Assembly: GCA_049291695.1 (NCBI GenBank) | Contig: JBATPX010000217.1 | Location: 30,001-94,000 of the forward strand | DNA length: 64,000 nucleotides | DNA from: Defluviicoccus sp. | GTDB lineage: Bacteria; Pseudomonadota; Alphaproteobacteria; Rhodospirillales; Defluviicoccaceae | Reading direction: 5' to 3' | Shown here: positions 23,630 through 39,194 of the stretch, in pieces | Position numbering within the stretch: the first letter of the stretch is position 1 | Layout: every line of letters starts with the position of its first letter | Position numbers and translations under genes: made by a program | Notes under the pieces: model-generated | The model's input: the letters and a program-made list of their open reading frames with translations, nothing else | What the model was told of the DNA's origin: nothing | Databases searched by the model: none

Positions 23630-24394
23630 ATGGCACCGCTCAGCATCGCATTCGGCGCCACACCGCGCGAGCGCCTCGAGCCGCTGGGGTTGCGTCTGCC
23701 GACGCTCACCGGCACGTGCCAGCTTGAGGCCGGCTCATTCTTCGAGCCACCGTGCTTCATCCAAGCCCGGGTCGATCAGCCGACCCTGCTTGAGGTCGGG
23801 GCCTTTGCCTCGGTCAGCGGCGGCCAGATCGGCAAGGTGAGGATCGGCCGCTATTGCGCGATTGCACCCGATGTCCGCATCGGCGCGCACGAGCATCCGA
23901 CCCATTGGCTGACCTGCTCGCGCGTCGCCTACTATCCGGTCGTGCACGATTGGGATCGCTTCAGTCGTCCGGACCGGTACGAAGCGATCCGCGAGACCCA
24001 GCACCCCTTCGCCGCCAGCTGCCCGCTGACAACGCTCGGCCCCGACGTCTGGATCGGCCAAGGCGCATTCATCAAGGCCGGCATCACGCTTGGGCCCGGC
24101 GCGGTGGTAGCGGCGCGCTCGGTGGTCATCAAGGACGTACCGCCTTATGCCATCGTCGCCGGCATGCCGGCGAGCGTCAAGAAGTACCGCTTCGCGGACC
24201 GCATCATCGAGCACCTGCTTGAAGTCAACTGGTGGCGCTATTCCCTTTACGACTGTTACGATCTGCCGTTCGACAAGCCTGAGCAGGCGCTGGACACGAT
24301 CGAAGAGCGGGTGGCCGCGGGCACGCTGAGGCCCTATTGCCCGCGCGCCCTAAGTGCGGCCGACCTGCAGCAACTTTTCGCGGCGAATGCTTAA
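23630..24394 (+). CDS. Hexapeptide-repeat O-acetyltransferase (CatB/Vat-like)
   Basis: Left-handed beta-helix repeats (IGRYCAIAPDVRIGAH, VWIGQGAFIKAGITLGPGAVVAARSVVIKDVPPYAIVAGMPA). Confidence 0.75.
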   Translation: MAPLSIAFGATPRERLEPLGLRLPTLTGTCQLEAGSFFEPPCFIQARVDQPTLLEVGAFASVSGGQIGKVRIGRYCAIAPDVRIGAHEHPTHWLTCSRVAYYPVVHDWDRFSRPDRYEAIRETQHPFAASCPLTTLGPDVWIGQGAFIKAGITLGPGAVVAARSVVIKDVPPYAIVAGMPASVKKYRFADRIIEHLLEVNWWRYSLYDCYDLPFDKPEQALDTIEERVAAGTLRPYCPRALSAADLQQLFAANA

Positions 24395-24463
24395 GCGGCA
24401 GCGCGGAGCGAGCGCATTCGTGGGCACCTCTGAAGCATCTCCCCTTTCCCAACGAGCGAACTG

Positions 24464-25651
24464 ATGGCAGCCAGAACGAGAAAAATCCTGGTCATGATCC
24501 CCGCTGGGGAGGTTTACGATCACGACTGTGTCCGCTGGTACAAGGCCAGCGATACGCAACGTTCGATTGAACATTACCATAACATTGGTGATGCGTTTGT
24601 TTTCGACTCTTCGTTAAAACTACTTGATTATAATCATATCGACTCCCTTGAGATAAGCAAGTTCGATAACCGAAAAATTGATGTTTACAACTCGGAGTAT
24701 GATTACTGCTTTCTGAGAGGCTCCAACTATCTCAACCCCTCGACCAACTGGAGTCATGCGGCTGATATCATCGAGAAGCTGACAATCCCGGTGATCGCGT
24801 TCGGCATCGGCGCCCAGGCACCGAGCCAGGGCGCCCTTGAGTTATCGGAGGAAACGAAGCGGGTGATGCGGGCGATCGCGCACCGGTGCAGCACCATCGG
24901 CGTGCGCGGCGCGTTCACCGCCCAGACACTGTGGGACATGGGCGTCAAGAACATCCGTATCATCGGCTGCCCGACACTGTTCCGCCGCAACAATCCCGAG
25001 CTCCGCATCGACCTGCCGGCCCTGGCAGATGTGCGCACGATCGGTTTCACGGTGCGCCGCGAGGTTTCCGCCGCGTACGCGAAGGATGTCGAGAGCTATC
25101 TCGGCCGCCACCGGTCTATCATCGCCGATCTCGACAGCCACTATGACGTCAGGCTGATGGCGCAGGGTGAAGTCGAAGAAAAGAAGCTGGTGTTCGGCAC
25201 GCCCTTGCAGCGGGCACAGGCTCTCGTGCAGCTGACGCAGTCGCAGTGGTTTGCCGGGCCCGATGATCCTCTCGTCCGGCTCTACTGCACGCGACTGTTC
25301 TACTCGGACGTGGTTGCCGACTACGATTGCGTGACGCGGCTCCACGATCTCGTTCTTGGCTACCGGCTGCACGGCAATCTGATGGCGCTCGCGAACGGCG
25401 TGCCGGCGATTTACTTCACCTACGACAGCCGGACCGCCGAATTTGCCGAGACCTTTGCTATCCCGGCCTACGATGTGTTTTCGAACGAGCCGTTCGCTTT
25501 GGAAGCGTACTGGGATCAGAGCCGCTTCGAGCGGTTCAACCAAGCCTACTACCGCGGCTACCGGGAGATGCGAGCCTTTCTAACCGAGAACGGCCTTGCA
25601 CATAAGATGAAGGCGGATGCGCCGGTTCCGGAGGCGCGTCGTGCCGCCTGA
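24464..25651 (+). CDS. Polysaccharide pyruvyl transferase family protein
   Basis: NIGDAFVFDSSLKLL, LRGSNYLN, VRGAFTAQTL..IIGCPTLF, GYRLHGNLMALANGVPAIYFTYDSRTAEF: the pattern of the CsaB/WcaK/ExoV family. Confidence 0.75.
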   Translation: MAARTRKILVMIPAGEVYDHDCVRWYKASDTQRSIEHYHNIGDAFVFDSSLKLLDYNHIDSLEISKFDNRKIDVYNSEYDYCFLRGSNYLNPSTNWSHAADIIEKLTIPVIAFGIGAQAPSQGALELSEETKRVMRAIAHRCSTIGVRGAFTAQTLWDMGVKNIRIIGCPTLFRRNNPELRIDLPALADVRTIGFTVRREVSAAYAKDVESYLGRHRSIIADLDSHYDVRLMAQGEVEEKKLVFGTPLQRAQALVQLTQSQWFAGPDDPLVRLYCTRLFYSDVVADYDCVTRLHDLVLGYRLHGNLMALANGVPAIYFTYDSRTAEFAETFAIPAYDVFSNEPFALEAYWDQSRFERFNQAYYRGYREMRAFLTENGLAHKMKADAPVPEARRAA

Positions 25652-26417
25652 ACCTGTTGTCGACGGCGAGCCGGGCACCCCAACCGCGCCCGTGGCGCTC
25701 GTGGCGCCTCCTTCGATCGCCGGCTACATCGATGCGGTCAAGGGCCTCAAGGTCTCCGGCTGGGCCTGGAACCGCGCCGACCCTGCGGCCGCCCTCGAGA
25801 TCGAGATCCGCCGTGACGGCAAGGTGGCGGCCCTCGGCCGTGCCGATAAGTTCCGCGCTGACCTGGAGAAGGCCGGCGTCGGCGATGGCCGTCATGCGTT
25901 CGAGATCATGCTGGAAACGCCGATCGCCCCGGGGGAAGGTCACGCCATCGAGGCGTTTGCAATTTGCCCCGGCCTCGCACGACCCGCGCCGTTGGTCAAT
26001 CGCACCGGTGCCGCGCCTGGCAGTGAGCGGGGGGGCGCTCCGGCGATGCCCGCAGAGTTCCGCCAGTGGGTTGATCAAGTCGCCAGCGTGCAACGAACTT
26101 TCGAGGCGACGGTGCGTTCGGTCATCGGTGATGTTCGAGCGGCCGAAGCGCGCGCAACCCGCCGCCCGGCGGCGGAGCTGCAGGCACTGACGGCTGCGGT
26201 CGAGAGCCTGCACGGTGCCGTCGGCGAGATCGCCAGGCAACTGCAAGGGCTCGAAGTGTTTCAGGCGCGCTTCGACGGCCTCGCGGCCACGCTTGAACAG
26301 GCCGATGCGCAACGGACCAAAGCAGCGCCCGCCGACCAGCGGCTGGTCATCGCCGTCGCCGGTGTGGCCGCCCTCTCGCTGCTTTCACTGGTGATGGGGA
26401 TCTGGGCCATCCTCTGA
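25617..26417 (+). CDS. Hypothetical tail-anchored protein (N-terminal beta-rich domain, coiled-coil, C-terminal TM)
   Basis: GYIDAVKGLKVSGWAWN..EIRRDGKVAALGRADKFRADLEKAGVGDGRHAFEI, then a helical region, then the C-terminal hydrophobic LVIAVAGVAALSLLSLVMGIWAIL. Start ATG 25617 (overlaps the upstream gene) or GTG 25641. Confidence 0.55.
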   Translation: MRRFRRRVVPPEPVVDGEPGTPTAPVALVAPPSIAGYIDAVKGLKVSGWAWNRADPAAALEIEIRRDGKVAALGRADKFRADLEKAGVGDGRHAFEIMLETPIAPGEGHAIEAFAICPGLARPAPLVNRTGAAPGSERGGAPAMPAEFRQWVDQVASVQRTFEATVRSVIGDVRAAEARATRRPAAELQALTAAVESLHGAVGEIARQLQGLEVFQARFDGLAATLEQADAQRTKAAPADQRLVIAVAGVAALSLLSLVMGIWAIL

Positions 26418-26460
26418 GACGCCTGCCGCTGCCCGCGCGGGCATTGCTGGTCAGAGCCGC

Positions 26461-27828
26461 TCATCGCTCGCGCAGGGCGTGCCGCATCCGCTCGGTAAGG
26501 GGCTCGACGAAGTAGTCAATCGCCCGCCGCTCACCGGTGTTGATCATGACCTCCACCGGCATGCCGGGCGAAAGACGGGCCCCCTCGTTCATCGCCAACG
26601 ACTCCGCCAGCAGTTTGAGGCGAACCGTGAAGTAGGGCTCGCCGGTCCGAGCGTCCGCCAGCTTGTCGGCAGAAACATAGCTCAGCACGCCGCCGATGAC
26701 GGGCGCGTTTGATCGCTTGTAGGCCGTGAGCCGTGCCTCCGCCGGCAAGCCGGGATGCAGGCGTTCAATGTCGACCGGGCTGACACGGGCTTCCACGATC
26801 ATCTCGTCGTCCACCGGAACGATGTCCATCAAGGCTTGGCCCGGCCCGATTACGCCACCTGGGGTGACGACGCGCAGATCGACGACGATGCCGTCCTGCG
26901 GTGCCGTCACCGAGCGGCGTTCGCGGATGTCGCGGGCGGCGCGGATGCGCTCGCTCAGGTCTTTCTCAAGCTTCTGGGCATCGGCGATGCCGCGTGCGAT
27001 CTCGGCCAGGCGGGTCTGCTCGAGGTTGGCGATCTCCTGCATCGTGCCGGCGATTGCAGCGTTGGCGCGGCCGACCTGATTGGCAAGCTCGCCCTGGCGA
27101 CCTTTGAGTTCTGCCACCGTCCGCTTCAGCTCCAGCATCCGCGGGCGCCGTTCATAGCCCTTGTTCAGCAAGTAGACGACGCCTGCGAGCTCTTCTTCGT
27201 ACAGTCTCAGCCGCTCGCTCGTCGCCGCCAGCTCCGCCTCGGCGCCGGCGATCTCCCGGCGTGACTGCTCAATCCGTTGTTCAAGGACCGCCTGCGCGCT
27301 GTCGTGGGCCTGCCAGCGGACGTGGAACAGGCGGCTCTGTCCCGCCAGCAGCGCCGCTGCGTGCGGGTCATGGGCTGTCCCTGCCAGCGCCGAGGGTTCC
27401 TCCATCTCGCGCGAACCCGCCTGTTCGGTGCGCAGACGGGCGAGCTCGGCGGAAGTTGCCAGGGCTTGTGCGGTGAGCTGGCTGAGCTGGGCCTCCGCTT
27501 GCGTCGCATCGAGGAGCGCCACCGGTTGGCCCATCCGCACGCGGTCGCCCTCGTGCACCAGCATCTCGCTGAGAATGCCGCCTTCGAGGTGCTGGATGGT
27601 CTTGCGGTGACTGTCAACGATCACCGTCCCGGCGGCGATGACTGCCGAGTCCAGGTGCGCCAGCAGTGACCAGCCGAGGAAGCCGCCAAAGCAGGACGCA
27701 ATCGCAAGCGTGCCGGCAATCACGGTCCCGCGCAGCGATGGCTCCGTTTCGTCCTCATGGGTGCCGGCGTTGGCAGCGCCCGCATTGAGGAACTTGCCTG
27801 GCAATAAACGCAACGATATCGCGGTCAT
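26461..27828 (-). CDS. Type I secretion membrane-fusion protein (HlyD family)
   Basis: 455 aa. N-terminal TM, long coiled-coil, HlyD-type C-terminal barrel. Start lies 2 nt after the ABC gene stop. Confidence 0.9.
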   Translation of the reverse strand: MTAISLRLLPGKFLNAGAANAGTHEDETEPSLRGTVIAGTLAIASCFGGFLGWSLLAHLDSAVIAAGTVIVDSHRKTIQHLEGGILSEMLVHEGDRVRMGQPVALLDATQAEAQLSQLTAQALATSAELARLRTEQAGSREMEEPSALAGTAHDPHAAALLAGQSRLFHVRWQAHDSAQAVLEQRIEQSRREIAGAEAELAATSERLRLYEEELAGVVYLLNKGYERRPRMLELKRTVAELKGRQGELANQVGRANAAIAGTMQEIANLEQTRLAEIARGIADAQKLEKDLSERIRAARDIRERRSVTAPQDGIVVDLRVVTPGGVIGPGQALMDIVPVDDEMIVEARVSPVDIERLHPGLPAEARLTAYKRSNAPVIGGVLSYVSADKLADARTGEPYFTVRLKLLAESLAMNEGARLSPGMPVEVMINTGERRAIDYFVEPLTERMRHALRER

Positions 27829-27830
27829 GG

Positions 27831-29579
27831 TCAGGCCGTCGCCGTCAGCGGCAAGCGGGCGACGCTGGCGCGGGTTGCGCTGCGCCGCGGTGCGGGAGCC
27901 GCATAGTCCTTGACCACCTCCTGGCGCGGCCCGATCCGCTCGATGCGACCTTCTCGCAGGACCAGGAGCCGGTCGGCCGTCGCGACCACCGAGGTGCGTT
28001 GAGCGACGATCACGACCGTCGTTCCGGTGCGCCGCGCCTGCTCGATCGCGACCAGCAGTGCGTCTTCGCCTTGCGCGTCCATGCTGGAGTTTGGCTCGTC
28101 GAGAACCAGCAGGCGAGGCCCGCCGAACAGCGCGCGCGCCAGCGCGATCCGCTGGCGCTGGCCGCCGCTCAGCACGAACGCCCCTTCGCCGATCATGGTC
28201 TCGTACCCGCGCGGCAGGCGGCCGATCATCTCGTGGACGCCGGCAGCCTTGGCGGCCTTGATCACGTCCGCGAGTTCCGCGTCCGCAAAGCGGCCGATGT
28301 TGTCGCGGACGGTGCCCTCCAGCAGCACGGCATTCTGCGGGAGATAGCCGACGGCACGGCCGAAGCTTGTCCGCTCCCAGGCGTAGACGTCATGCCCGTC
28401 AAGGTAGATGCCGCCGGCGCTCGGCTTCCATACCCCGACCAGGAGCCGGGCCAGTGTCGATTTGCCGGCACCGGATGGGCCGATGATGCCCAGCACCTCA
28501 CCCGGGTTGAGGCTGAAGCTGATGCTTTTCAACAGGGCCTGATCACTGCCGGGCGGGATGAAGGAAAGCCGCTCGATGACCACGGCGCCTTCGGTTGCGA
28601 CGGCCGGCACCTCAAGCCGGTCGGAGACATGGCTGGCCAGCAACTGCCGCAGCCGGGCGAAGGCGCCGAAGGCGAGGCACCACTGGCGCCATCCCTGGAT
28701 CAGCTGATCGAACGGCTGCAGCAGCCGGCCGAGCATGATGGTGGCCGCCATCATGCTGCCGGCGGAGACCTCGTGATTGATCAACAGCGTGGCCCCTGTG
28801 CCGAGCATTGCAACCTGCACCATCATCCGCAGCGAGCGGGCAACGGCGCCGATCGCCTTGGCGGCAGTGTTGCCGGCGCCCACCAACATCAGGGCCCGAT
28901 CCTGGCCGCGCCGCCAGCGGCTGGCGATCGCAGCGCGCATGCCAAGCGCTTCGATGAGTTCGGCATTGCGGATCGCGGCGCCGACTTCGACGTGGGAGCG
29001 CACGGCGGCATCGTTGGCGGACGCTTGCGGACGCCTGGCCACATATTCCATGGCGATGCTGAGGCTGATCAGGACCGTGATCGCGATGACGCCAACGACG
29101 CCATAAGTGGGATGCAACACGAACAGCAGCAGCAGGAACAGCGGCGAGACGAGGGCATCGAACGGCAAGGCGACGGGTCCGCCGGTGACGAACTGGCGCA
29201 ACTCATGGACGTCGCGCATCGCATCTGTCGCGCCCGCGGATCCGCTGCGTAGCGACTGCGCGACTGCTGCTTGCAGCACAGGGGCACCCAGCTGGCGCGC
29301 CAGCCGTTCGCCGACGATCACGAAAACGCGCGCGCGGATGTATTCCAGCAGACCCAGGAAGCCGAGGCCGACCACCGCCAGCAGCGTCAACGCGATCAGC
29401 GTATCGAGGCTGCGGCCCGGCACGACACGGTCGTAGACCTGCAGCATGTAGAGCGGCAGGATCAGGTGGAGGAAGCTGATGAAGGTGCCGAGCACGCCGG
29501 CGTAGAGCACGCCCGCACGCGTTCGCTTGAGTGCGCTCTGCAGGACCGGACTGACCGTCGCTCGCGTCGTCGCCGCCAT
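27831..29579 (-). CDS. Type I secretion ABC transporter permease/ATPase (PrtD/AprD type, no C39 domain)
   Basis: 582 aa. 6-TM N-domain, Walker A GPSGAGKST, signature LSGGQRQRIALARAL, Walker B LLVLDEPNS. Confidence 0.92.
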   Translation of the reverse strand: MAATTRATVSPVLQSALKRTRAGVLYAGVLGTFISFLHLILPLYMLQVYDRVVPGRSLDTLIALTLLAVVGLGFLGLLEYIRARVFVIVGERLARQLGAPVLQAAVAQSLRSGSAGATDAMRDVHELRQFVTGGPVALPFDALVSPLFLLLLFVLHPTYGVVGVIAITVLISLSIAMEYVARRPQASANDAAVRSHVEVGAAIRNAELIEALGMRAAIASRWRRGQDRALMLVGAGNTAAKAIGAVARSLRMMVQVAMLGTGATLLINHEVSAGSMMAATIMLGRLLQPFDQLIQGWRQWCLAFGAFARLRQLLASHVSDRLEVPAVATEGAVVIERLSFIPPGSDQALLKSISFSLNPGEVLGIIGPSGAGKSTLARLLVGVWKPSAGGIYLDGHDVYAWERTSFGRAVGYLPQNAVLLEGTVRDNIGRFADAELADVIKAAKAAGVHEMIGRLPRGYETMIGEGAFVLSGGQRQRIALARALFGGPRLLVLDEPNSSMDAQGEDALLVAIEQARRTGTTVVIVAQRTSVVATADRLLVLREGRIERIGPRQEVVKDYAAPAPRRSATRASVARLPLTATA

Positions 29580-29585
29580 TGGAGG

Positions 29586-30887
29586 CTACTCGGCCGCGAG
29601 GGCGCTGAGTGTCACATCCGGCCGGCGGCCTTGCGTCTCGAACAGGCTTCGAAACAGCGCGTGGTGCTGCTGAGCCGCGTCCTCGGCACTGACCGGCTTG
29701 CGGATGCGCCCGCGCAGGCGCTCCCACAGCTCCGGCGTGGACAGCGCAAGGGTGATCCGGTCGACCAGGCTTTCGGCGCTGCCGGCGCGGAAATGAAGGC
29801 CGTCAACGGTGTTGCGCACCTTTTCCGCCATGCCGCCGATGTCGCTGCAGAGGATCGGCCGGCCATGCAGGAAAGCCTCCTGGATGACCACCGGCGAGTT
29901 CTCCCACCATGTCGACGGAATGATGACCCAATCGATATCGCGCATCAGGACTGGCAGATCCGGGCTGCGGTAGCTGCCGAAAAAGCGCACGCGGCGGCCG
30001 GCGGCGGCGACGAGGCGCCTGAACTCCTGCTGAAACGCTTCCGGCTGTACTTCCAGGTTGCCGCCGTAGACGTTGAGGATGGCGTCGTTTCCCCAGATGT
30101 TTGCCGGAATGCGGACGATCGCTTCCAGCAGCACCTTAATGCCCTTGAACTGGTTCAGCTGACCGAAATAGGCGAAGTGGCTGCGCCTGCTGCGGGGGCC
30201 TGCGAGCGGCCGCGGCGGCGCGATCTCGCCGATGTCGAGGCCGTTCTCCAGCATCACCATTTTCTCGCGTGGCAGTCCCCAGCTCACATAGCGCTCGATG
30301 AGAAACCGGCTCGGCGAGACAAACATGTCCACCTGATCGAAGAACGAGCGAAGGAACAATTCCCGCCGCATGAACTGGGCCGGCGAAATGCCCGGAAAGC
30401 AGACATTGCATTCACCGGGGGTGGCACGCCGGCACAACTGGCCCCCCCTGGCTTTGATCATCTGACCGTGATTGTTGCAGATCGACAGATACTCATGCAG
30501 CGTAAAGACGATCTTTGCTTCGGGCAGCGTCTCCCGGATCACGCGGATCGCCTCAACGCCGAAACCCAGCACGTGATGCAGGTTGACGACATCCGGTCTG
30601 ACGTCGCTGAGGAAACGGCTGAAATCGCGGCTCAGGTTGCCGAGGTCGCGATTGGAGAGGCGGTAGTAGTCATAGTCGTTGGCGTAGAACAGCGTTTCGC
30701 GCGCGTTCTGACGCAGGCTCATGAAGGGCGTATCGCGGTGCCGGCTGATCGGCGGCCCGACGCGGGCGAGATAATGCGCCTCGCAGCCGTCAAGCCGGTT
30801 CAGCCCTATGAAAAGATTGTAGGATGCAACCTCGGCGCCACCGATCGAGAACGCCGGATGGCCGTGCGACAGGATCAGGACCTTCAC
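29586..30887 (-). CDS. GT-B glycosyltransferase (GT4-like) with Cys4 insertion
   Basis: MKVLILSHGHPAFSIGGAEV... and the EX7E region VIIPSTWWENSPVVIQEAFLHGRPILCSDIGGMAEKV. CX14CX7CX2C at aa 137-163. GTG start after GGGGAG. Confidence 0.85.
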   Translation of the reverse strand: MKVLILSHGHPAFSIGGAEVASYNLFIGLNRLDGCEAHYLARVGPPISRHRDTPFMSLRQNARETLFYANDYDYYRLSNRDLGNLSRDFSRFLSDVRPDVVNLHHVLGFGVEAIRVIRETLPEAKIVFTLHEYLSICNNHGQMIKARGGQLCRRATPGECNVCFPGISPAQFMRRELFLRSFFDQVDMFVSPSRFLIERYVSWGLPREKMVMLENGLDIGEIAPPRPLAGPRSRRSHFAYFGQLNQFKGIKVLLEAIVRIPANIWGNDAILNVYGGNLEVQPEAFQQEFRRLVAAAGRRVRFFGSYRSPDLPVLMRDIDWVIIPSTWWENSPVVIQEAFLHGRPILCSDIGGMAEKVRNTVDGLHFRAGSAESLVDRITLALSTPELWERLRGRIRKPVSAEDAAQQHHALFRSLFETQGRRPDVTLSALAAE

Positions 30888-30915
30888 CTCTGGGCTCCCC
30901 TCGTTTCACGCGCGT

Positions 30916-33225: not shown

Positions 33226-34484
33226 GCCGCGTCCTTTCGCCGCATCAGCTCTCGATAGAGCGCAAGATGCTCCTGGGCCGTGTCTTCAAGGGTGGGCACG
33301 ACCGGGCGGCGATCATGCAGGTCCTGCCACAGCTCGGGTTCGCTCGCCGCGCGCGCCATTGTCTGCGCCAGATCCGCCGCATCACCGGCCCGGAAATGCA
33401 GGCCGTCGTGCCCCGCCTGGACCGCTTCCGCCATGCCGCCCAGGTCGGAACAGATGACCGGCCGCCCATGGCGGAACGCTTCCAGGATGACGAGCGGCAG
33501 GTTCTCCCACCAGACCGAGGGCACCACGACCCAGTCCACCGCCGCCAGAAGCGTGGGCAGCTCCCCGCGCTGATAGGGGCCGTGGTGGGTGGCGACCGGA
33601 GCCGCCGCAGCGAGCGCTTCGGCAAAGGCCTGACGAAATGCCGGCGGCTGGAAGCCGAGGCCGCCATGGATCTGCAAGGCCAAGTCACTGCCAGCTGCGG
33701 CCAGGCGGCGGGCGGCCTCGAGAGCCACCAGCGTGCCCTTGTGCGGTGCAATGTTGCCGAACAACCCAAAGGTTCGCCGATGCCGGAGGCCGCCGCTCGC
33801 GAGGGGTGCATCCTCGGCCGGGACCGCGTTGGCAATGACCTGGATTCGCTCCGGTGCGAGGCCCCAGTCGACGTACCGCTCACGCAGGAACGCACTCGGC
33901 GCAATGAACTGATCGACCAGCGCAAGCTGGCAGTTCAGCCGCAGCCGCCGCAAGGCATGTCGCGTGGCCGCCGTTTCCGGAAGGCACCGGTGGCAGGCAT
34001 CAGGGGATGGGTGGCGGCACAAGATGCCTTCAGGGCGGGTCAGCATGAGACCATCGTTGGCGCAGATCAGGTGGTAATCATGCAGCGTCATCACGATCCG
34101 CGCCTGGGGCGCGTGCCGGCGGATCAGGACCAAGGCTTCCAGGCCGACCAGGGACAGGTGGTGCAGGTGGACGATCTCCGGCCTGAACGAGCGCAACAGC
34201 TCGGACAAGGCGCGCGAGAACGCCGTGAGCTCGGTTTGTGCAAGCATCAGCCGATCGAAGCGGCCAACGCACACCAGCGCCTCATCCCCGCCCGGCCCGA
34301 TTGCCTGCAGCACGGCGTCTGAGCGCAGCTGCCGATGCAGCGGAGTCGCGCAGCCGAGGAAGAACGGCTCCGCCTGGCCACTGGCCCGCATCGCGCGGAA
34401 GAGGTCGTACGCGAAGATCTCCGTGCCGCCCGGGTGCAACGCGGGGTGACCGTGGCAGAGATAAAGGACGCGGGCGCTGGTCAT
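33222..34484 (-). CDS. GT-B glycosyltransferase (GT4-like), paralog of 29586-30887
   Basis: VLYLCHGHPALHPGGTEI... and VVVPSVWWENLPLVILEAFRHGRPVICSDLGGMAEAV. The same CX14CX7CX2C at aa 141-167. ATGA overlap with the upstream gene. Confidence 0.85.
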   Translation of the reverse strand: MTSARVLYLCHGHPALHPGGTEIFAYDLFRAMRASGQAEPFFLGCATPLHRQLRSDAVLQAIGPGGDEALVCVGRFDRLMLAQTELTAFSRALSELLRSFRPEIVHLHHLSLVGLEALVLIRRHAPQARIVMTLHDYHLICANDGLMLTRPEGILCRHPSPDACHRCLPETAATRHALRRLRLNCQLALVDQFIAPSAFLRERYVDWGLAPERIQVIANAVPAEDAPLASGGLRHRRTFGLFGNIAPHKGTLVALEAARRLAAAGSDLALQIHGGLGFQPPAFRQAFAEALAAAAPVATHHGPYQRGELPTLLAAVDWVVVPSVWWENLPLVILEAFRHGRPVICSDLGGMAEAVQAGHDGLHFRAGDAADLAQTMARAASEPELWQDLHDRRPVVPTLEDTAQEHLALYRELMRRKDAA

Positions 34485-36763
34485 GCTGCCCTCTTTCGCG
34501 GACGCGAGGGGCGAAGCCGTGCCTTGGCGACCGCCGTCGCTGGCCGTCGCGGTTGGTCGTCGGCGCCCGCGCCCATTGCCTCGATCAAGGAACGCCAGCG
34601 GGCTTCGAACAGGCGCCCGTCAAGTGCACGCGCGAGCGTGGCGTTCGCGGCGGCCGCGGGATCGTCGGCGTGCAACGCGATGACGTACGGTTCCGCCACG
34701 ACGCTGACGTGACCGCCCGCTTTCCACACCCGCGCCGAAAAATCGGCATCGCGATGGAACGGGCCGAGGTAGTCCAGCGCAAAGCCGCCAACCGCCTCGA
34801 ACAGCGCGCGCGATAGCGCGAGGCAACCGGTCGCGGCGATCGGCGCGGCAGCGGCCTTCATCCGGGCCGGATAGTCGCGCGGGAAGCCGGCAAAGCGGTT
34901 GCGGATCGCCCAGCGGCCGGTCGTGTCCAGACCCGCATCGGCGCCGGCGGTCGCGATCGAGCCATCGTGGTAGAGTGTCGGTGCCGCCACCAGCGAACGC
35001 TCGGGTCCGACCGCCAGTGCATGCAGGAGCGCGTCGAGCCAGATGGCAGCTTCCGGGATGACGCCCTCACCATGGAAGGCGAGCACCGGCGCGGCGATGA
35101 GCGATGCGGCAACGTTGAGGCCGCTTGCGCAGGGGGCATCGCCTGGCATCACGACCAGCCGGTGGCCACCGCCGTAGCACGCCTGCAGGTCGGCAAGACC
35201 GGCGGCGACCGCGGCCTCCTTGTCCGGGCAGCTCAGCACATAGACGATCTCAACGCCGTCGCGTTCCGGCATGGTGGCGAACAGGCCGGCGTGCGCGGCA
35301 AGAAAATCAGGATCATCGCCGACCGGGATGACGACACCGGCCCGGGGCTCACCCGGCACGGTGCCGAACGCCAGCACCGTGCGCGGGGCAACGGCCGCCG
35401 TGCGAGAGTCGATCAGCGCGCGGACGGCAGGCTCGATGCAGGCGGCGACGGCCGCGGGGACGGCAGGCGCCCGCACTGGTGTCGTCACGATGGCATCGAG
35501 GGCGGCGGTACCGCGGAGCGGACCCGGGCCTTCGCCGATCTCGATCGCGTGTCCGGAGCGCAGAACGAGGCTGATCTGGCAGGGAGCGTCGGGCCTGCAA
35601 GCGTCCTGAACCGGGAAAAACACCGCAAGGCCGCGGCTGCCGTGGGGCGTGCCTGCCGGCGGCAGAAGAAGGGCGCCCTCGTTGATCGGCACTGTCAGCT
35701 GCCCGCTGAGGCTTGCGGTTGCGATTGCGCCGACAAGATCGTGCGGATCGTTCAGCCACGCCTGAACAAGAAGCCCCGCAGGGGTGGCAATGGCTTGGTT
35801 CAGCCCGGCGGCCAGCGCCTTCGATCGGCTCACGCTGGCCGGTGCGGCCGGCGGCGCCAGGGCCTCCAACTCGTGGATCAGCCGCTGTGCGGCCGCCGAC
35901 CGGTCATTCTCCATCTGCGTGAGGGCTGCGAACAGACACCAGCGAGCGGCCCGGGACAACTGGTCAGGGTGCGCCAGCCAGTCGAGGACGGATGGCACGG
36001 CCAATCCGTCGACAATACCGTTTCGCCAGGCGAGACCGCCCGTACCGAAGATCAGGAGGTTGGTCGGCGCCGCCTGGCTGACGCCCGCCTCGAGGAGAAC
36101 AGCGACGCGCTGGAGGCCTGCCGGCAGGCCAGGGTCGGTGCAGGCGACGGGCGTGCCGATCGGCAGCGCGATCGCATTCTCGCCGATTGCGACCGCGCTT
36201 AACTGCTGCCCAAGCCGCTTCGGTGTTAAGCATTCACACAGGACGTAGCCGTCCAGGACGCGGGCGCGCGGCGCGATGGGCTGGGCCTTGAGCTTGAGCT
36301 CGCTTAACAATTCCCGGCAGCAGGCCACATAATCGGCGTTGTGGCTGAGTTGCAGGACCGCAGGGCAGTTCGCCACGAGGAAGCGGACGCCCGCAATCCG
36401 CTGTGGCGTATCAAGGCCGGCCAGCAGGCGTGCGGCGTCGAAGGGAAGCGGCTCCCCGCGCCAGCACTCCTCCTCGCGCGCGATTACGCGGCCGTCAACG
36501 TCGCGGACGGCGAGCCCCGCCGGATCGAGCGGTGCGCCGTGATGGACGAGGGCGAGCAAGGTCCGGCTTCCTTGCCCGGCCAGGGACAGGCGCGTGGTGA
36601 TGAACCGGGTGCGAAACGGCACGCCGCCGTTCATCGCCACGAGCCGCGTCCGCGGCGGTACCCCTGCCGTATCCCACACCAAGAGCAGCGCTGCCCGCGT
36701 CAATTGAAACACCTGCAGCGCTGCTGGCGGTGAGGCGCCGGCCATACTGTTGCTGGGGGCCAT
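34481..36763 (-). CDS. Large two-part protein, paralog of 30916-33225: unknown N-terminal region + GT-A-like domain with non-canonical DxD (HGE)
   Basis: GT-A layout from about aa 476 (GVVIPVGDD..VEIVYVLSCPD..APVLAFHGEGVIPEAAIWL..CLALSRALFEAVGGF..RDADFSARVWKAGG). H564-G-E566 sits at the DxD position. SD AAGAGGA lies 7 nt before ATG 36763. Confidence 0.7.
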   Translation of the reverse strand: MAPSNSMAGASPPAALQVFQLTRAALLLVWDTAGVPPRTRLVAMNGGVPFRTRFITTRLSLAGQGSRTLLALVHHGAPLDPAGLAVRDVDGRVIAREEECWRGEPLPFDAARLLAGLDTPQRIAGVRFLVANCPAVLQLSHNADYVACCRELLSELKLKAQPIAPRARVLDGYVLCECLTPKRLGQQLSAVAIGENAIALPIGTPVACTDPGLPAGLQRVAVLLEAGVSQAAPTNLLIFGTGGLAWRNGIVDGLAVPSVLDWLAHPDQLSRAARWCLFAALTQMENDRSAAAQRLIHELEALAPPAAPASVSRSKALAAGLNQAIATPAGLLVQAWLNDPHDLVGAIATASLSGQLTVPINEGALLLPPAGTPHGSRGLAVFFPVQDACRPDAPCQISLVLRSGHAIEIGEGPGPLRGTAALDAIVTTPVRAPAVPAAVAACIEPAVRALIDSRTAAVAPRTVLAFGTVPGEPRAGVVIPVGDDPDFLAAHAGLFATMPERDGVEIVYVLSCPDKEAAVAAGLADLQACYGGGHRLVVMPGDAPCASGLNVAASLIAAPVLAFHGEGVIPEAAIWLDALLHALAVGPERSLVAAPTLYHDGSIATAGADAGLDTTGRWAIRNRFAGFPRDYPARMKAAAAPIAATGCLALSRALFEAVGGFALDYLGPFHRDADFSARVWKAGGHVSVVAEPYVIALHADDPAAAANATLARALDGRLFEARWRSLIEAMGAGADDQPRRPATAVAKARLRPSRPRKRAA

Positions 36764-36843
36764 TACGAGGTCCTCTTAAGGGGCTTCCCGCCGTTCCCTC
36801 GTGCAGCCGCAAGCGATCCGGCGGCAGAAGGGGAGTATCGGCG

Positions 36844-37635
36844 CTAAACCACCATAATGAACTTGCCCGGGTCAGCCTGCAGATCGTCAACCGACACACC
36901 GACCAGCGTCACCGTATCGTCGCCGAAGGTGAGAACGGTGCTGTCGCCCTCTTCGGTTGCCAGCGCCGCCACGTCGGCGGCGGAGCTTACGTCGAGGCCA
37001 TTGATATTCTTGGCGATGCGCAGCGTATCTTCGTCCGAGTGGAAGTCGAGGATGATGTCGCTGCCGCCGCCGCCGTTGAAGATGAACAGGTCTTCGCCGC
37101 TGCCGCCGCGCAGGATGTCGTCACCAACACCCCCGGACAGGACATCGTTGCCGGCGCCGCCGATCAACATGTCATCGCCCGCCTCACCGAACAGTTTGTC
37201 GTTCCCGGCGCCGCCCAGGAGGACGTCGTCGCCTGCACCGGCACTCAGCAGGTCATCGCCGGATCCCCCCTCCATCATGTCGTCGCCGGCATTGCCGTGC
37301 AGGACGTCGTTCCCCGCCCCGCCGGAAAGAGCGTCATCACCGTCGCCGGCCACCAGCCTGTCGGCACCGGAGCCGCCCTTGAGCATGTCGTCACCCGAAC
37401 CGCCGAGCAGCAGGTCGTCGCCGGAACCGCCCTGAAGCAGGTCATCGCCGCTGAGGCCGGTCAGCACGTCGTTGCCGCTGCCGCCCTCGATGGTATCGCT
37501 GCCGTCTTGGCCGAACAGCCGGTCATCACCGGCCTTGCCGTTGATCTGGTCATTGCCCGCTCCACCTGCGGCGACGTCGGCGCCGGAGGAACCCTTGATC
37601 ACGTCGTCAAACGCCGAGCCTGGAATTGTAGCCAC
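36844..37635 (-). CDS. Small RTX (hemolysin-type calcium-binding repeat) protein, probable T1SS substrate
   Basis: About 16 consecutive GGxGxDxUx nonapeptides (GGSGNDVLT, GGSGDDLLL, GGAGNDVLH ...). No N-terminal signal peptide. C-terminal non-repeat tail ending DDLQADPGKFIMVV. GTG 37635 with SD GGGAGG (37641-37646) is preferred over the TTG at 37731 used in the ORF track. Confidence 0.9.
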   Translation of the reverse strand: MATIPGSAFDDVIKGSSGADVAAGGAGNDQINGKAGDDRLFGQDGSDTIEGGSGNDVLTGLSGDDLLQGGSGDDLLLGGSGDDMLKGGSGADRLVAGDGDDALSGGAGNDVLHGNAGDDMMEGGSGDDLLSAGAGDDVLLGGAGNDKLFGEAGDDMLIGGAGNDVLSGGVGDDILRGGSGEDLFIFNGGGGSDIILDFHSDEDTLRIAKNINGLDVSSAADVAALATEEGDSTVLTFGDDTVTLVGVSVDDLQADPGKFIMVV

Positions 37636-37646
37636 GGTCACCTCCC

Positions 37647-37812
37647 GATTGGATCTGTCCTGAGGAATGGCGCCCGTCTTGCACCCCGCGGCTTTGTAAT
37701 TGAAAGACGAGGTGGCTGTCAAAATAAACAAAAGTAAGTAAAAAAGCTCTCTTGTCCGCTGACGTTATGGATAAGTATATTCATATTCGCTTTAACATTG
37801 GTGAAAAATTGC
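37647..37812 (-). promoter_or_regulatory. AT-rich leader/promoter region upstream of the RTX-GT-T1SS operon
   Basis: Visibly AT-rich stretch (aaaataaacaaaagtaagtaaaaaagc ... gataagtatattcatattcgctttaacattggtgaaaaatt) immediately 5' of the first operon gene. No specific -35/-10 assigned. Confidence 0.35.
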
Positions 37813-37814
37813 GT

Positions 37815-37991
37815 GGATCTCGATCTCTCCGCCGTCTCACGACCAGGGGGCACAATCTGCGCACGGGACTGGCCCTCGAATGGCGGATGCGTGGCCAGCG
37901 CCCGTTCGTTTTCACCAACCTCAAGACCGGCGCCGGTCTTGACGCCGTCGCCGCCTTCATCCTGAAGGCCGGCGGTCTGTCCCCGCGCTGA
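37815..37991 (+). pseudogene. ureG: 3' remnant of urease accessory GTPase gene ureG
   Basis: The last ~35 codons (37884-37991) read RMRGQRPFVFTNLKTGAGLDAVAAFILKAGGL, matching the UreG C-terminus (..RMRG.RP..FTNLK.G.GL..I.AF....G.L). No P-loop, no upstream UreG sequence, and no ureF/E. Upstream of 37884 any similarity is only in another frame (VDLDLSAV). The 5' boundary is approximate. Confidence 0.6.
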
Positions 37992-38018
37992 ACTCCGCCC
38001 AAGCCGGCCGGAGCCGGG

Positions 38019-38047: not shown

Positions 38048-38144
38048 GGACTTCTCGTCTAGAAAGGCGCGCCAAAGCGTTACCGGGCGGGTGCATCGTC
38101 GTCCGCTTGGCCGAAAAACGACATCGAGAATAGGGAGCCGCGAA

Positions 38145-39191: not shown

Positions 39192-39194
39192 CAT

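What the first reader, a model, noticed from the sequence alone, without database searches (positions are those of the whole stretch)
23630..37731. Compact RTX protein + glycosyltransferase + type I secretion cluster with acetyl- and pyruvyl-transferases but no canonical polysaccharide export or priming genes
Seen in sequence:
- Seven tightly packed minus-strand genes have start/stop overlaps or gaps of 2-28 nt.
- The order is small RTX protein (263 aa, no signal peptide) -> large GT-A-like protein -> GT4 -> large GT-A-like protein -> GT4 -> PrtD-type ABC -> HlyD-type MFP.
- They converge on a hexapeptide acetyltransferase, a pyruvyl transferase and a tail-anchored protein.
- I see no Wzx/Wzy/Wzc/Wza, no ABC-2 exporter, no synthase, no undecaprenyl-phosphate priming transferase, no nucleotide-sugar genes and no TolC-like outer membrane factor in the window.

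Established knowledge: the closest paradigm I know is the Sinorhizobium meliloti exp (wge/wgd) galactoglucan (EPS II) cluster. There a NodO-like RTX protein (ExpE1/WgeA) and a PrtDE-like T1SS (ExpD1/ExpD2) are needed to make an acetylated, pyruvylated disaccharide-repeat polymer. The mechanistic link between the T1SS or RTX protein and the glycan is unresolved there.

Inference: this could be a minimal exp-like system in which the T1SS and RTX protein are integral to glycan production or export. Alternatively, the enzymes could glycosylate the RTX protein before export. Either would be mechanistically novel.
Basis: partly seen in the sequence, partly recalled or inferred. Interest (0 to 1): 0.75.

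Follow-up and report, generated by a model that had tools for sequence, protein, structure and literature searches.

The report
Compact galactoglucan-type EPS cluster with T1SS
This ten-gene block is a stripped-down relative of the Sinorhizobium meliloti "EPS II" slime-making genes, in which sugar-adding enzymes always travel with a small calcium-binding secreted protein and its dedicated export pump; the layout turns out to be common in Alphaproteobacteria, so it is a known kind of system whose export mechanism is still unsolved.

Summary
Window 23630-37731 carries ten co-oriented or convergent genes: an acetyltransferase, a pyruvyl transferase and a tail-anchored protein on the + strand, facing HlyD-MFP, PrtD-ABC, GT4, a 769-aa protein, GT4, a 760-aa protein and an RTX protein on the - strand. 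No Wzx/Wzy/Wza/ABC-2/priming/TolC gene was found among the 50 window ORFs scanned.

The genes match, one to one and in order, S. medicae ExpD1, D2, E1, E2, E4, E5, E6 and E7. ExpA1-10, ExpC, ExpG, ExpE3 and ExpE8 are absent.

A genome scan found at least 573 relatives of the GT4 genes. In 75 loci from Azospirillum, Bosea, Microvirga, Amaricoccus, Paracoccus, Thalassospira and Defluviicoccus (92% identity) the same core sits next to the T1SS and RTX genes. None carries the expA operon. The compact form is therefore the norm.

The two big proteins are full-length paralogues. An AF2 model of the 769-aa one shows three Ig-like sandwiches plus a GT-A domain. The E6 family lacks a DxD motif. The window's E2 lacks motifs that are near-invariant elsewhere.

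Verdict: a new variant of a known, mechanistically unresolved system, with moderate interest.

The parts
23630..24394 (+). Hexapeptide-repeat O-acetyltransferase (254 aa), Vat/CatB-like
   Evidence: Pfam Hexapep, 39 bits. The best NCBIfam hits are xenobiotic- or sugar-acetyltransferase families, all below their cutoffs. Orthologues (48-49% identity) follow the T1SS genes in 16 of 20 'type B' loci, so the gene belongs to the cluster.
24464..25651 (+). Polysaccharide pyruvyl transferase (395 aa)
   Evidence: PF04230, 88.7 bits, full-length match. It is 59% identical to the pyruvyl transferase in the Azospirillum cluster and only 24% identical to S. medicae ExpA4/ExpA5.
25617..26417 (+). ExpE5/WgeE-like tail-anchored protein (266 aa): N-terminal conserved domain, a long middle region, and a C-terminal TM helix
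   Evidence: No Pfam or NCBIfam family. The only hydrophobic segment is residues 241-266. It is 28-30% identical to the ExpE5 position in S. medicae and Azospirillum. The alignment of 22 orthologues has invariant G36 D39 G48 W49 P56 R80 D82 G89 G91 F95. The start may lie downstream of 25617, because the ORF overlaps the pyruvyl transferase gene by 35 nt.
26461..27828 (-). HlyD-family T1SS membrane-fusion protein (455 aa), ExpD2/WgdB orthologue
   Evidence: TIGR01843, 380 bits against a cutoff of 208.65. It is 38% identical to S. medicae ExpD2 and 46% to the Azospirillum protein.
27831..29579 (-). PrtD-type T1SS ABC permease/ATPase (582 aa), ExpD1/WgdA orthologue
   Evidence: TIGR01842, 598 bits against a cutoff of 510. 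It is about 50% identical to S. medicae ExpD1. It is the only polytopic membrane protein of the cluster.
29586..30887 (-). GT4 glycosyltransferase (433 aa), ExpE7/WgeG orthologue
   Evidence: Pfam Glycos_transf_1 and Glyco_transf_4. It is 52% identical to S. medicae ExpE7, 60% to Azospirillum and 92% to a Defluviicoccus MAG. The EX7E motif (E329...E337) and four Cys (137, 152, 160, 163) are invariant.
30916..33225 (-). ExpE6/WgeF-like 769-aa protein: three Ig-like beta-sandwiches plus a C-terminal GT-A-like domain lacking a DxD motif
   Evidence: No Pfam family. It is 28% identical to S. medicae ExpE6. The AF2 model has pLDDT 86, with sandwiches at 40-137, 190-282 and 338-446 and a GT-A domain at about 500-760. 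Foldseek finds GT27/GT2 enzymes at E of 1e-8. The N-terminal half matches only generic Ig folds. The DxD position reads LSxxV across the family.
33222..34484 (-). GT4 glycosyltransferase (420 aa), ExpE4/WgeD orthologue
   Evidence: Pfam GT4 families. It is 46% identical to S. medicae ExpE4 and 52% to Azospirillum. It is 39% identical to the other GT4.
34481..36763 (-). ExpE2/WgeB-like 760-aa protein, a full-length paralogue of the 769-aa protein, with divergent GT2 motifs
   Evidence: It is 24% identical over 96% of its length to S. medicae ExpE2 and 29% over 97% to Azospirillum. The E2 and E6 profiles align over 686 columns with E of 8.6e-54. The E2 profile hits GT2/GT27 structures. The window copy reads VLSCPDK / HGEGVIP / YHDGSIATAG / PFHRDADFS, where 49 of 58 orthologues show the VLDSPE(Q/H/I) / NSD(V/I)(I/V)P / (F/Y)xDxS(L/I)QHAG / GD(Y/F)EDSD pattern, with 1-2 conservative substitutions in some, e.g. 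L005.
36844..37635 (-). ExpE1/WgeA-like RTX calcium-binding protein (263 aa from GTG 37635), the T1SS substrate
   Evidence: HemolysinCabind, 273 bits, 11 stretches. It is 51% identical to S. medicae ExpE1 and 87% to Defluviicoccus. It has no hydrophobic segment. The roughly 75-aa C-terminal domain is conserved. The N-terminus MATIPGSAFDD is conserved. A GGGAGG ribosome-binding site lies 5 nt upstream of the GTG.
37636..38018 (-). AT-rich intergenic region upstream of the RTX gene; presumed promoter and regulatory region of the seven-gene operon
   Evidence: Read directly: AT-rich between about 37700 and 37830, against 66% GC in the window. The consensus scan found no sigma-70-like site on the - strand, and Rfam found nothing. 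Its function is inferred only.

Best explanation
Proposal: the block is a compact orthologue of the Sinorhizobium meliloti wgd-wge (expD-expE) part of the galactoglucan (EPS II) system. It sits in a Defluviicoccus-like alphaproteobacterium.

Subtype. It belongs to a subtype I call 'type B':
- There is no ExpE3 methyltransferase.
- The T1SS genes lie directly after the last GT4.
- An acetyltransferase is attached.
- The E2 protein is divergent.

How it most likely works:
1. (Inferred) An acidic hexose polymer carrying O-acetyl and pyruvyl-ketal groups is built on the cytoplasmic face of the inner membrane. The reasons are that every transferase is soluble and that acetyl-CoA and PEP are cytoplasmic donors.
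2. (Inferred) The two GT4 enzymes, which keep an intact EX7E motif and are predicted to be retaining, do the catalysis. Each is paired with one of two paralogous 'three Ig-like sandwich plus GT-A' proteins.
3. (Inferred) The E6 paralogue lacks the nucleotide-binding Asp and the DxD motif in all lineages, so it probably acts as a scaffold. The window's E2 has also lost motifs that are near-invariant elsewhere, so it may be inactive or re-specialised.
4. (Inferred) The tail-anchored E5 protein is the only membrane tether apart from the exporter. It probably docks the complex.
5. (Shown for the S. meliloti orthologues, inferred here) The PrtD-type ABC protein and the HlyD adaptor, with an unlinked TolC, secrete the 263-aa RTX protein through its C-terminal signal. 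In S. meliloti this secretion is required for polymer to appear outside the cell.
6. (Inferred, about 45% likely) The same ABC/MFP/TolC conduit is also the route of the glycan, with RTX secretion coupled to it. The alternative (about 35%) is that the RTX protein acts only outside the cell and an unlinked exporter moves the glycan.
For: - Orthology and order.
- T1SS identity: TIGR01842 and TIGR01843 score above their curated cutoffs.
- RTX protein: a conserved C-terminal domain.
- Conserved linkage: 75 loci carry E4+E6+E7. All 20 type-B loci carry D1, D2 and E1. Of 55 type-A loci, 48 carry D2 and 52 carry E1; the rest are cut by the 10-kb flank limit.
- No alternative exporter: no locus carries ExpA23, ExpA1 or ExpA6. 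Among 60 flank ORFs of 15 loci there is no recurrent Wzx, Wzy, Wza, ABC-2 or priming family.
- Membrane topology: no GT has a TM segment.
- Big proteins: GT-A fold and Ig-like domains; E2 and E6 are full-length paralogues; motif status.
- GT4 enzymes: invariant EX7E motif.
- Product chemistry: acetyl- and pyruvyl-transferases match the chemistry of EPS II, which is 6-O-acetyl-Glc and 4,6-pyruvyl-Gal with alternating alpha-1,3 and beta-1,3 links (PMC8227245).
- S. meliloti genetics: PMC1403797, PMC3233446, PMC2912261.
Against: - Nothing here shows what polymer is made, or that any is made.
- In S. meliloti the wga operon is also required for high-molecular-weight EPS II (PMC3233446). Its products include the GT2-GT4 fusion WgaB and the dTDP-sugar enzymes. 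The window lacks it, so the compact cluster may need unlinked genes or may make a different product.
- The window's E2 has lost the motifs expected of the beta-glucosyltransferase, and the pyruvyl transferase is only 24% identical to ExpA4/5. The product need not be galactoglucan.
- The ABC protein scores as an ordinary protein-secreting PrtD. No PrtD-type T1SS has been shown to move a polysaccharide (my own knowledge).
- No priming enzyme, lipid-carrier step or TolC gene was found in the window. Only 64 kb of a contig of at least 134 kb was seen.
Confidence: 0.75

Rival explanations
1. This is an RTX glycoprotein system. The GT4 and GT-A-like enzymes glycosylate the RTX protein in the cytoplasm, and the T1SS exports the glycoprotein. 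The 'EPS' is then either a protein-linked glycan or is released from the protein afterwards. The RTX protein leaves C-terminus first, so a chain attached near its invariant N-terminus would be towed out last.
For: - The RTX gene sits immediately upstream of the GT genes in every locus.
- The extreme N-terminus M-A-T-(I/L/V)-x-G-(G/S)-x-(F/Y)-x-(D/N) is near-invariant from Sinorhizobium to Paracoccus. It occurs once per locus, even where 2-4 RTX paralogues are present. The T1SS signal is C-terminal, so this conservation needs another explanation.
- The best fold matches of the GT-A domain are polypeptide GalNAc-transferases.
- No lipid-carrier priming enzyme is encoded in any of the loci sampled.
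Against: - GT27 hits are the usual top PDB neighbours of any GT2-like domain, because many such structures have been solved. Sequence identity is only 14-18%.
- In the literature retrieved, WgeA is listed among the extracellular proteins of S. meliloti and EPS II is described as a polysaccharide, with no mention of a protein linkage (PMC2912261; PMC8227245). The primary paper (Moreira et al. 2000) was not available to check.
- No conserved Ser/Thr-rich acceptor region exists beyond Thr3.
Confidence: 0.12
2. The RTX protein is purely an extracellular accessory. It could be a Ca2+-dependent organiser or anchor of the acidic polymer, or a feedback signal. The T1SS exports only protein. The glycan is primed and exported by unlinked housekeeping genes, for example a WecA-type primer plus an ABC-2 or other exporter elsewhere in the genome.
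For: - The ABC and MFP proteins are canonical PrtD/HlyD-type protein exporters by curated thresholds.
- TolC is unlinked in S. meliloti too, so dependence on trans-acting envelope genes is already part of the system.
- In R. leguminosarum the PrsDE T1SS exports EPS-modifying proteins rather than EPS (reference in PMC1403797).
Against: - Across 75 loci in many genera, no other exporter or primer is ever co-encoded. That is unusual for an EPS locus.
- S. meliloti expD and expE1 mutants lack EPS II altogether rather than making altered polymer (PMC1403797).
Confidence: 0.3
3. The T1SS/RTX genes and the glycosyltransferase genes are neighbours by accident and have unrelated functions.
For: Only that the RTX to E2 gap (80 nt) is longer than the other junctions.
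Against: - The adjacency is conserved in 75 loci from distant alphaproteobacterial genera, in two different gene orders.
- The T1SS genes are in tight, same-strand succession with the GT genes here, with gaps of 6 and 2 nt.
- S. meliloti genetics link the two gene sets.
Confidence: 0.02

Closest known systems
Sinorhizobium meliloti galactoglucan (EPS II) exp cluster: wgdAB (expD1/D2) plus wgeA-H (expE1-8)
   Same: - There are orthologues of ExpD1, D2, E1, E2, E4, E5, E6 and E7 at 24-52% identity and 73-97% coverage, in the same relative order E1-E2-E4-E6-E7.
- The RTX substrate has the same N-terminal motif and the same C-terminal domain.
- Both carry acetyl and pyruvyl decoration enzymes.
- TolC is unlinked in both.
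   Different: - The window has no wga operon: WgaA (DUF6212), the WgaB GT2-GT4 fusion, ExpA6 and the dTDP-sugar genes ExpA7-10.
- It has no WgcA, no WggR regulator, no WgeC methyltransferase and no WgeH.
- The pyruvyl transferase is only 24% identical to ExpA4/5.
- A hexapeptide acetyltransferase is added.
- The T1SS genes lie downstream of, not upstream of, the GT genes.
- E2 lacks the conserved GT2 motifs.
Uncharacterised 'type A' clusters of Azospirillum, Bosea, Microvirga, Skermanella and Thalassospira (e.g. A. argentinense plasmid p2, D3093_RS25800-25850)
   Same: - The same core is present, and a pyruvyl transferase 59% identical to the window's.
- Like the window, they lack the expA operon.
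   Different: - They carry the E3 methyltransferase and a canonical E2.
- They often carry a secreted 431-aa protein (no Pfam family), galE and a MarR regulator.
- Their gene order is D1-D2-E1-E2-E3-E4-(E5)-E6-E7-Pyr.
Rhizobium leguminosarum PrsDE T1SS with NodO and Ply glycanases
   Same: A PrtD/HlyD-type T1SS secretes RTX-type Ca-binding proteins that influence EPS (PMC1403797).
   Different: There the secreted proteins are glycanases and adhesins that act on EPS made by a Wzx/Wzy pathway. Here no such pathway is linked, and the secreted protein is a bare beta-roll with no enzyme domain.
ABC-transporter-dependent polysaccharide pathways (Wzm/Wzt O-antigens, KpsMT capsules) and T1SS-like glycoconjugate exporters (DevBCA-HgdD, NdvA/ChvA)
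   Same: - Soluble or peripheral GTs are predicted to assemble and decorate the whole polymer in the cytoplasm before ABC-driven export.
- An MFP/TolC-type tripartite architecture is used by DevBCA for glycolipids (my own knowledge).
   Different: - The ABC protein here is a fused PrtD-type half-transporter, not an ABC-2 (Wzm/KpsM) permease.
- A co-secreted RTX protein is part of the system.
- No primer enzyme is linked.
Two-subunit GT-A polymerases with one degenerate paralogue (e.g. the CHSY3-CHPF chondroitin synthase heterodimer, PDB 9o4g; K4CP, 2z86)
   Same: GT-A domains of E2/E6 match these by profile and by fold. One paralogue, E6, lacks catalytic motifs, which suggests an active/inactive pairing.
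   Different: This is a resemblance of fold and logic only. Identity is 13-18%, the partners here are GT4 enzymes, and the N-terminal three Ig-like domains have no counterpart.

Membership tests
S. meliloti-type exp (wgd/wge) EPS II system | WgeA/ExpE1-type small RTX protein encoded next to the GT genes | tested here: met
   51% identity to S. medicae ExpE1. It shares the N-terminal MAT(I/L)xGG motif and the C-terminal domain.
S. meliloti-type exp (wgd/wge) EPS II system | Dedicated PrtD/PrtE-type ABC plus MFP (WgdA/WgdB) in the cluster | tested here: met
   50% and 38% identity to ExpD1 and ExpD2. TIGR01842 and TIGR01843 score above their cutoffs.
S. meliloti-type exp (wgd/wge) EPS II system | WgeB-WgeD-WgeF-WgeG orthologues (big GT-A-like, GT4, big GT-A-like, GT4) in that order, plus WgeE | tested here: met
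   E2 and E6 are full-length paralogues.
S. meliloti-type exp (wgd/wge) EPS II system | WgeB with canonical GT2 catalytic motifs (the predicted beta-glucosyltransferase) | tested here: not met
   The window E2 reads VLSCPDK / HGEGVIP / PFHRDADFS, where 49 of 58 orthologues show the VLDSPE(Q/H/I) / NSD(V/I)(I/V)P / GD(Y/F)EDSD pattern.
S. meliloti-type exp (wgd/wge) EPS II system | wga (expA1-10) operon and wgcA, required for EPS II in S. meliloti | tested here: not met
   tblastn finds no hit in the window, apart from a distant pyruvyl transferase. These genes are also absent from all 75 related loci, with ExpC-like GTs present in 13 of them.
S. meliloti-type exp (wgd/wge) EPS II system | MarR-type activator WggR/ExpG in the cluster | tested here: not met
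   Neither S. medicae ExpG nor the Azospirillum MarR finds a tblastn hit in the window.
S. meliloti-type exp (wgd/wge) EPS II system | Acetyl and pyruvyl decoration functions | tested here: met
   PF04230 pyruvyl transferase and Hexapep acetyltransferase. Orthology to the S. meliloti decorators is weak (24%) or absent.
S. meliloti-type exp (wgd/wge) EPS II system | The product is a Glc-Gal disaccharide-repeat galactoglucan, and the RTX protein and T1SS are required for its production | not testable with these tools
   This needs genetics and carbohydrate chemistry. No galE or nucleotide-sugar gene is present in the window.
Canonical type I secretion system (PrtDEF class) | ABC half-transporter without a C39 domain, plus an HlyD MFP, plus a substrate with RTX repeats and an uncleaved C-terminal signal | tested here: met
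   The TIGR01842 match covers residues 18-557 of the 582, and Pfam finds only the ABC_membrane and ABC_tran domains, so no N-terminal C39 domain is present.
Canonical type I secretion system (PrtDEF class) | TolC-family outer-membrane factor | tested here: not met
   No OEP/TolC family was found in any of the 50 window ORFs scanned. It is unlinked in S. meliloti as well, so this does not argue against a working T1SS.
Wzx/Wzy-dependent EPS pathway | Polyprenyl-P sugar-phosphate transferase, Wzx flippase, Wzy polymerase, Wzc/Wza | tested here: not met
   None is present in the window. None is recurrent in the flanks of 15 related loci.
Classical ABC-transporter-dependent pathway (Wzm/Wzt, KpsMT) | ABC-2 type permease with a separate ATPase | tested here: not met
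   The only exporter in the cluster is a fused ABC_membrane plus ABC_tran protein of PrtD type.
Synthase-dependent pathway (BcsA, Alg8, HAS type) | Polytopic membrane-embedded processive GT2 synthase | tested here: not met
   No GT in the cluster has a TM segment.

The most novel reading that the evidence does not exclude
The wgd/wge module is a self-contained, lipid-carrier-independent polysaccharide secretion machine in which the RTX protein is the vehicle.
- The glycan is started on, or docked to, the invariant N-terminus of the WgeA-like protein.
- It is built by a GT4 / pseudo-GT-A complex tethered by the tail-anchored E5 protein.
- The RTX protein threads C-terminus first through the PrtD/HlyD/TolC channel. 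Its Ca2+-driven folding outside the cell ratchets the attached chain out, after which the chain is released.

If true, this would be a new, fourth-type route of bacterial polysaccharide export, used by hundreds of alphaproteobacterial species.
Probability: 0.12. Interest if true: 0.85.

Novelty: new variant of a known kind. Interest (0 to 1): 0.45.

Why it matters
The requirement of a T1SS and a bare RTX protein for EPS II production in S. meliloti has been unexplained since 2000.

This analysis shows that the S. meliloti cluster is the elaborate outlier. A core of about 10 genes (T1SS, RTX protein, two GT4 enzymes, two Ig-like/GT-A paralogues, a tail-anchored protein and decoration enzymes) recurs across many alphaproteobacterial genera with no other exporter or primer attached.

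That has three practical consequences:
- It defines a minimal gene set for heterologous reconstitution.
- It points to specific testable features: the invariant RTX N-terminus, the DxD-less E6, and the divergent E2 of the type-B subtype.
- It flags a large family with no Pfam model. The E6 profile finds 1,185 representatives of 50%-identity clusters at E of 1e-30 or better.

For the organism, a Defluviicoccus-like bacterium whose closest relatives in the scan are metagenome-assembled genomes, the cluster is a candidate determinant of an acetylated, pyruvylated matrix polymer.

Tried and rejected
1. Single-sequence searches of both big proteins against PDB sequences found nothing useful. Profiles were needed.
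2. A fold search of the E6 N-terminal half returned only generic Ig/Fab matches with TM below 0.3. No specific function can be assigned to the three sandwiches.
3. I suspected that the E5 N-terminal domain is the same domain as the E6 sandwiches, because they share a GW..P..R.DL..G.G.H.F pattern. Profile-profile comparison gave E of 0.02 and probability 2% and, with a single sequence, E of 0.35. I treat this as inconclusive, not as a finding.
4. The promoter/terminator consensus scan was uninformative: 2 promoter-like sites against 1.2 expected, and fewer terminator-like sites than in the shuffles.
5. Rfam at gathering threshold found no family anywhere in the window.
6. I tried to extend the context beyond the window. 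The edge-gene product is not on record. The only other record of E6 is a 4.9-kb Logan contig. The rest of the genome (TolC, priming GT) could therefore not be examined.
7. The Azospirillum 431-aa secreted protein, ExpE8, ExpA1, ExpA6, ExpC and ExpE3 were searched against the window at E up to 1. Only spurious short hits came back.
8. The primary papers were not obtainable: Becker et al. 1997 (PMC178839) is not held, and Moreira et al. 2000 is not in the library. S. meliloti facts are therefore cited from reviews.
9. The idea that the GT27-like fold hits indicate protein O-glycosylation was considered and down-weighted. Such hits are generic for GT2-like GT-A domains.
10. The acetyltransferase's best NCBIfam hit is a phosphonate-metabolism hexapeptide family (115 bits against a cutoff of 202), and a phosphonate-type import cluster lies at 38-45 kb. 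I rejected a link between them, because acetyltransferase orthologues travel with the T1SS/GT genes in 16 of 20 type-B loci.

Full report
OBSERVATION

The ORF map and third-position GC support ten genes between 23630 and 37731.

Plus strand:
- A hexapeptide acetyltransferase (23630-24394).
- A polysaccharide pyruvyl transferase (24464-25651; PF04230, 88.7 bits).
- A 266-aa protein with no family, whose only hydrophobic stretch is its last 26 residues.

Minus strand, converging on these:
- A HlyD T1SS adaptor (TIGR01843, 380 bits).
- A PrtD-type ABC protein (TIGR01842, 598 bits).
- A GT4, a 769-aa protein, a second GT4 (39% identical to the first) and a 760-aa protein.
- An RTX protein with 11 nonapeptide stretches.

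Junctions are 4-nt overlaps or gaps of 2, 6 and 28 nt. The exception is an 80-nt gap after the RTX gene.

Pfam scans of 40 further ORFs across the window found only housekeeping or unrelated transport genes:
- uvrA, trmFO and two SQS_PSY ORFs.
- secDF-yajC, thiE and cardiolipin synthase.
- A phosphonate-type ABC importer with aminotransferases.
- An RND pump, gltS and a branched-chain amino-acid ABC system.

No Wzx, Wzy, Wzc, Wza, ABC-2, priming transferase, nucleotide-sugar enzyme or TolC was found.

WHAT IT IS

A tblastn search of the 760-aa protein against plasmids hit Azospirillum, Chelatococcus and Sinorhizobium megaplasmids. The Azospirillum argentinense p2 locus is annotated as follows:
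- T1SS ABC and HlyD.
- A calcium-binding protein.
- A glycosyltransferase, a SAM methyltransferase and a GT4.
- A 724-aa hypothetical protein, a second GT4 and a 431-aa hypothetical protein.
- A pyruvyl transferase and a 256-aa hypothetical protein.

I searched all ten window proteins against that locus and against the S. medicae pSMED01 exp region. This gave a one-to-one map:

| Window protein | S. medicae counterpart |
|---|---|
| RTX | ExpE1/WgeA |
| 760 aa | ExpE2/WgeB |
| GT4 at 33222 | ExpE4/WgeD |
| 266 aa | ExpE5/WgeE |
| 769 aa | ExpE6/WgeF |
| GT4 at 29586 | ExpE7/WgeG |
| ABC/MFP | ExpD1/D2 |

The window has no counterpart of ExpE3, ExpE8, ExpA1-10, ExpC or ExpG. Its pyruvyl transferase is only 24% identical to ExpA4/A5.

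HOW COMMON IT IS

The best is a Defluviicoccus MAG at 92% identity. The 760-aa protein's closest database relatives are labelled Rhodospirillales. The window therefore most likely comes from a Defluviicoccus-like alphaproteobacterium.

I annotated the 80 fetched loci by tblastn. Seventy-five carry E4+E6+E7.
- Fifty-five are 'type A': order D1-D2-E1-E2-E3-E4-(E5)-E6-E7-Pyr, with the methyltransferase present. They come from Sinorhizobium-like, Azospirillum, Bosea, Microvirga, Skermanella, Thalassospira, Chelatococcus and Kaistia genomes.
- Twenty are 'type B': order E1-(E2)-E4-E6-E7-D1-D2, usually followed by the acetyltransferase, with no methyltransferase. They come from Defluviicoccus, Amaricoccus, Paracoccus and Rhodovulum. 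The window is type B but, with its Defluviicoccus relative, keeps a type-A-like pyruvyl transferase (59% identical to Azospirillum's).

All type-B loci have D1, D2 and E1. In type A, 48 of 55 have D2 and 52 of 55 have E1; the remainder are cut by the 10-kb flank limit. None of the 75 has ExpA23, ExpA1 or ExpA6.

Sixty non-core flank ORFs from 15 diverse loci show no recurrent polysaccharide export or priming family. The most frequent families are importer ATPases, response regulators and TPR. The compact layout is therefore the norm, and the 22-gene S. meliloti cluster (PMC3233446) is the elaborated form.

THE PROTEINS

Only the ABC protein is polytopic. E5 is tail-anchored, and every transferase is soluble.

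The GT4s:
- They keep an invariant EX7E motif.
- They share four invariant cysteines.
- Their nearest solved relatives are ordinary GT4 enzymes: Alr3699, the 3c48/3c4q glycosyltransferases, a bacillosamine-lipid alpha-1,3-GalNAc transferase (8dvz) and PIM mannosyltransferases.

The two big proteins:
- They have no Pfam model.
- Family profiles hit GT2/GT27 structures over their last 280 residues or so.
- The E2 and E6 families align over 686 columns (E of 8.6e-54). The cluster is therefore a duplicated 'big protein + GT4' module.
- An AlphaFold2 model of the 769-aa protein (pLDDT 86) shows three beta-sandwiches, helical linkers and a C-terminal GT-A domain.
- Foldseek places the GT-A domain next to polypeptide GalNAc-transferases and other GT2-like enzymes (E about 1e-8).
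- The N-terminal half, remodelled alone (pLDDT 93), matches only generic Ig folds.
- The E6 profile finds 1,185 cluster representatives at E of 1e-30 or better and 11,579 at 1e-10 or better.

Motif analysis:
- Type-A E2 proteins carry near-invariant GT2 motifs: VLDSPEQ, NSDVIP, (F/Y)(E/D)DGSLQHAG, GDYEDSDLC and LYHLERRS.
- The E6 family lacks the first Asp and the DxD-equivalent everywhere (it reads LSxxV), but keeps YEDxS..AG and two later Asp residues.
- The window's E2, like other type-B E2s, reads VLSCPDK, HGEGVIP, YHDGSIATAG, PFHRDADFS and ALHADDPA. Some acidic residues survive nearby, so it is divergent rather than provably dead.
- E2 is also the fastest-evolving gene between the window and the Defluviicoccus MAG, at 76% identity against 87-92% for most others.

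The RTX protein:
- It is a bare beta-roll with a conserved C-terminal domain of about 75 aa.
- Its extreme N-terminus, M-A-T-(I/L/V)-x-G-(G/S)-x-(F/Y)-x-(D/N), is near-invariant. It is found in 40 of 41 orthologues and occurs exactly once per locus in 66 loci, even where several RTX paralogues are present.

MECHANISM

Shown for the S. meliloti orthologues:
- ExpE1 is secreted by ExpD1/D2, and TolC is needed.
- expD and expE1 mutants make no EPS II (PMC1403797; PMC2912261).
- EPS II is an alternating alpha-1,3/beta-1,3 Glc-Gal polymer with 6-O-acetyl and 4,6-pyruvyl groups (PMC8227245).

Inferred for the window:
- Soluble GT4 enzymes, each paired with an Ig-like/GT-A paralogue and tethered through E5, build and decorate an acidic polymer on the cytoplasmic side.
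- The T1SS secretes the RTX protein.
- Polymer export is coupled to that secretion.

No other exporter is ever linked in 75 loci. I therefore favour the ABC/MFP/TolC channel as the glycan route (about 45%) over an unlinked exporter with a purely extracellular role for the RTX protein (about 35%). A carrier or glycoprotein model stands at about 12%.

Arguments against the favoured view:
- The ABC protein is an unremarkable PrtD.
- wga genes are needed in S. meliloti.
- The product here is unknown. The loss of E2 motifs suggests it may differ from galactoglucan.

COMPARISON AND NOVELTY

The cluster meets the core membership features of the exp wgd/wge system. It fails three others: the wga/wgc genes, the WggR regulator and a canonical WgeB. 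It is not a Wzx/Wzy, ABC-2 or synthase system.

The field already treats EPS II as non-Wzx/Wzy, with ExpD1/D2 as transporters (preprint 10.64898/2026.08.21.746188).

In the literature I could search, I did not find any description of the following:
- The compact core as the widespread ancestral-looking form.
- The type-A/type-B split, with its correlated loss of the methyltransferase and of the E2 motifs.
- The DxD-less E6 family.
- The invariant RTX N-terminus.

I rate the finding a new variant of a known kind, interest 0.45. It does not overturn anything. It does turn a 25-year-old puzzle into a defined ten-gene reconstitution experiment.

Noticed in passing
window 36844-37635 (-); L001-L082 RTX genes: All WgeA/ExpE1-type RTX proteins begin with a near-invariant M-A-T-(I/L/V)-x-G-(G/S)-x-(F/Y)-x-(D/N). 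There is exactly one such ORF per locus, even where 2-4 RTX paralogues are present. The T1SS signal is C-terminal, so this N-terminus must serve another purpose, such as docking or modification.
   Followed up: partly
window 34481-36763 (-); compare L003, L004, L011, L013 with the other loci: Loss of the ExpE3 methyltransferase correlates with degeneration of otherwise near-invariant GT2 motifs in ExpE2/WgeB. L005 is an exception: its E2 is canonical but no E3 was found. This suggests that E2 and E3 act on the same sugar or step, and that type-B clusters make a different backbone.
   Followed up: partly
window 29586-30887 and 33222-34484 (-): Both GT4 paralogues, and their orthologues in Azospirillum and Sinorhizobium, share four invariant cysteines in the N-terminal Rossmann domain (C137, C152, C160, C163 in the 433-aa protein). 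This looks like a possible Zn-binding insertion, which to my knowledge is not a usual GT4 feature.
   Followed up: no
L002 22981-24276 (+) and orthologues in 46 of 75 loci: A 431-aa protein with a signal-peptide-like N-terminus and no Pfam family accompanies most clusters but is absent from the window. It might be a periplasmic or extracellular glycanase that sets chain length.
   Followed up: no
window 38019-45492 (+): Immediately to the right of the cluster lies a solute-binding protein, an ABC ATPase, a fused permease, a class-V aminotransferase, a HAD hydrolase and a class-III aminotransferase. This looks like a 2-aminoethylphosphonate-type uptake and degradation operon (PhnW/PhnX-like). 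It is unrelated to the EPS genes.
   Followed up: no
window 5596-6594 (-) and 6452-7354 (+): Two ORFs with squalene/phytoene-synthase domains lie on opposite strands, and their mechanical ORFs overlap by about 140 nt. At least one start is probably over-called. They may be HpnC/HpnD-like hopanoid genes.
   Followed up: no
window 12626-16857: A 470-aa ORF with no family, a TPR protein (14010-15266) and a ParA/MinD-like ATPase (15868-16857, -) sit between housekeeping genes. Their function is unknown. They are not linked to the EPS cluster in related loci.
   Followed up: no
window 22028-23338 (-): A DUF2914-domain protein (436 aa) lies directly left of the acetyltransferase on the opposite strand. 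I did not check whether it is conserved next to the cluster in the Defluviicoccus relatives, because L003 ends at the acetyltransferase.
   Followed up: no
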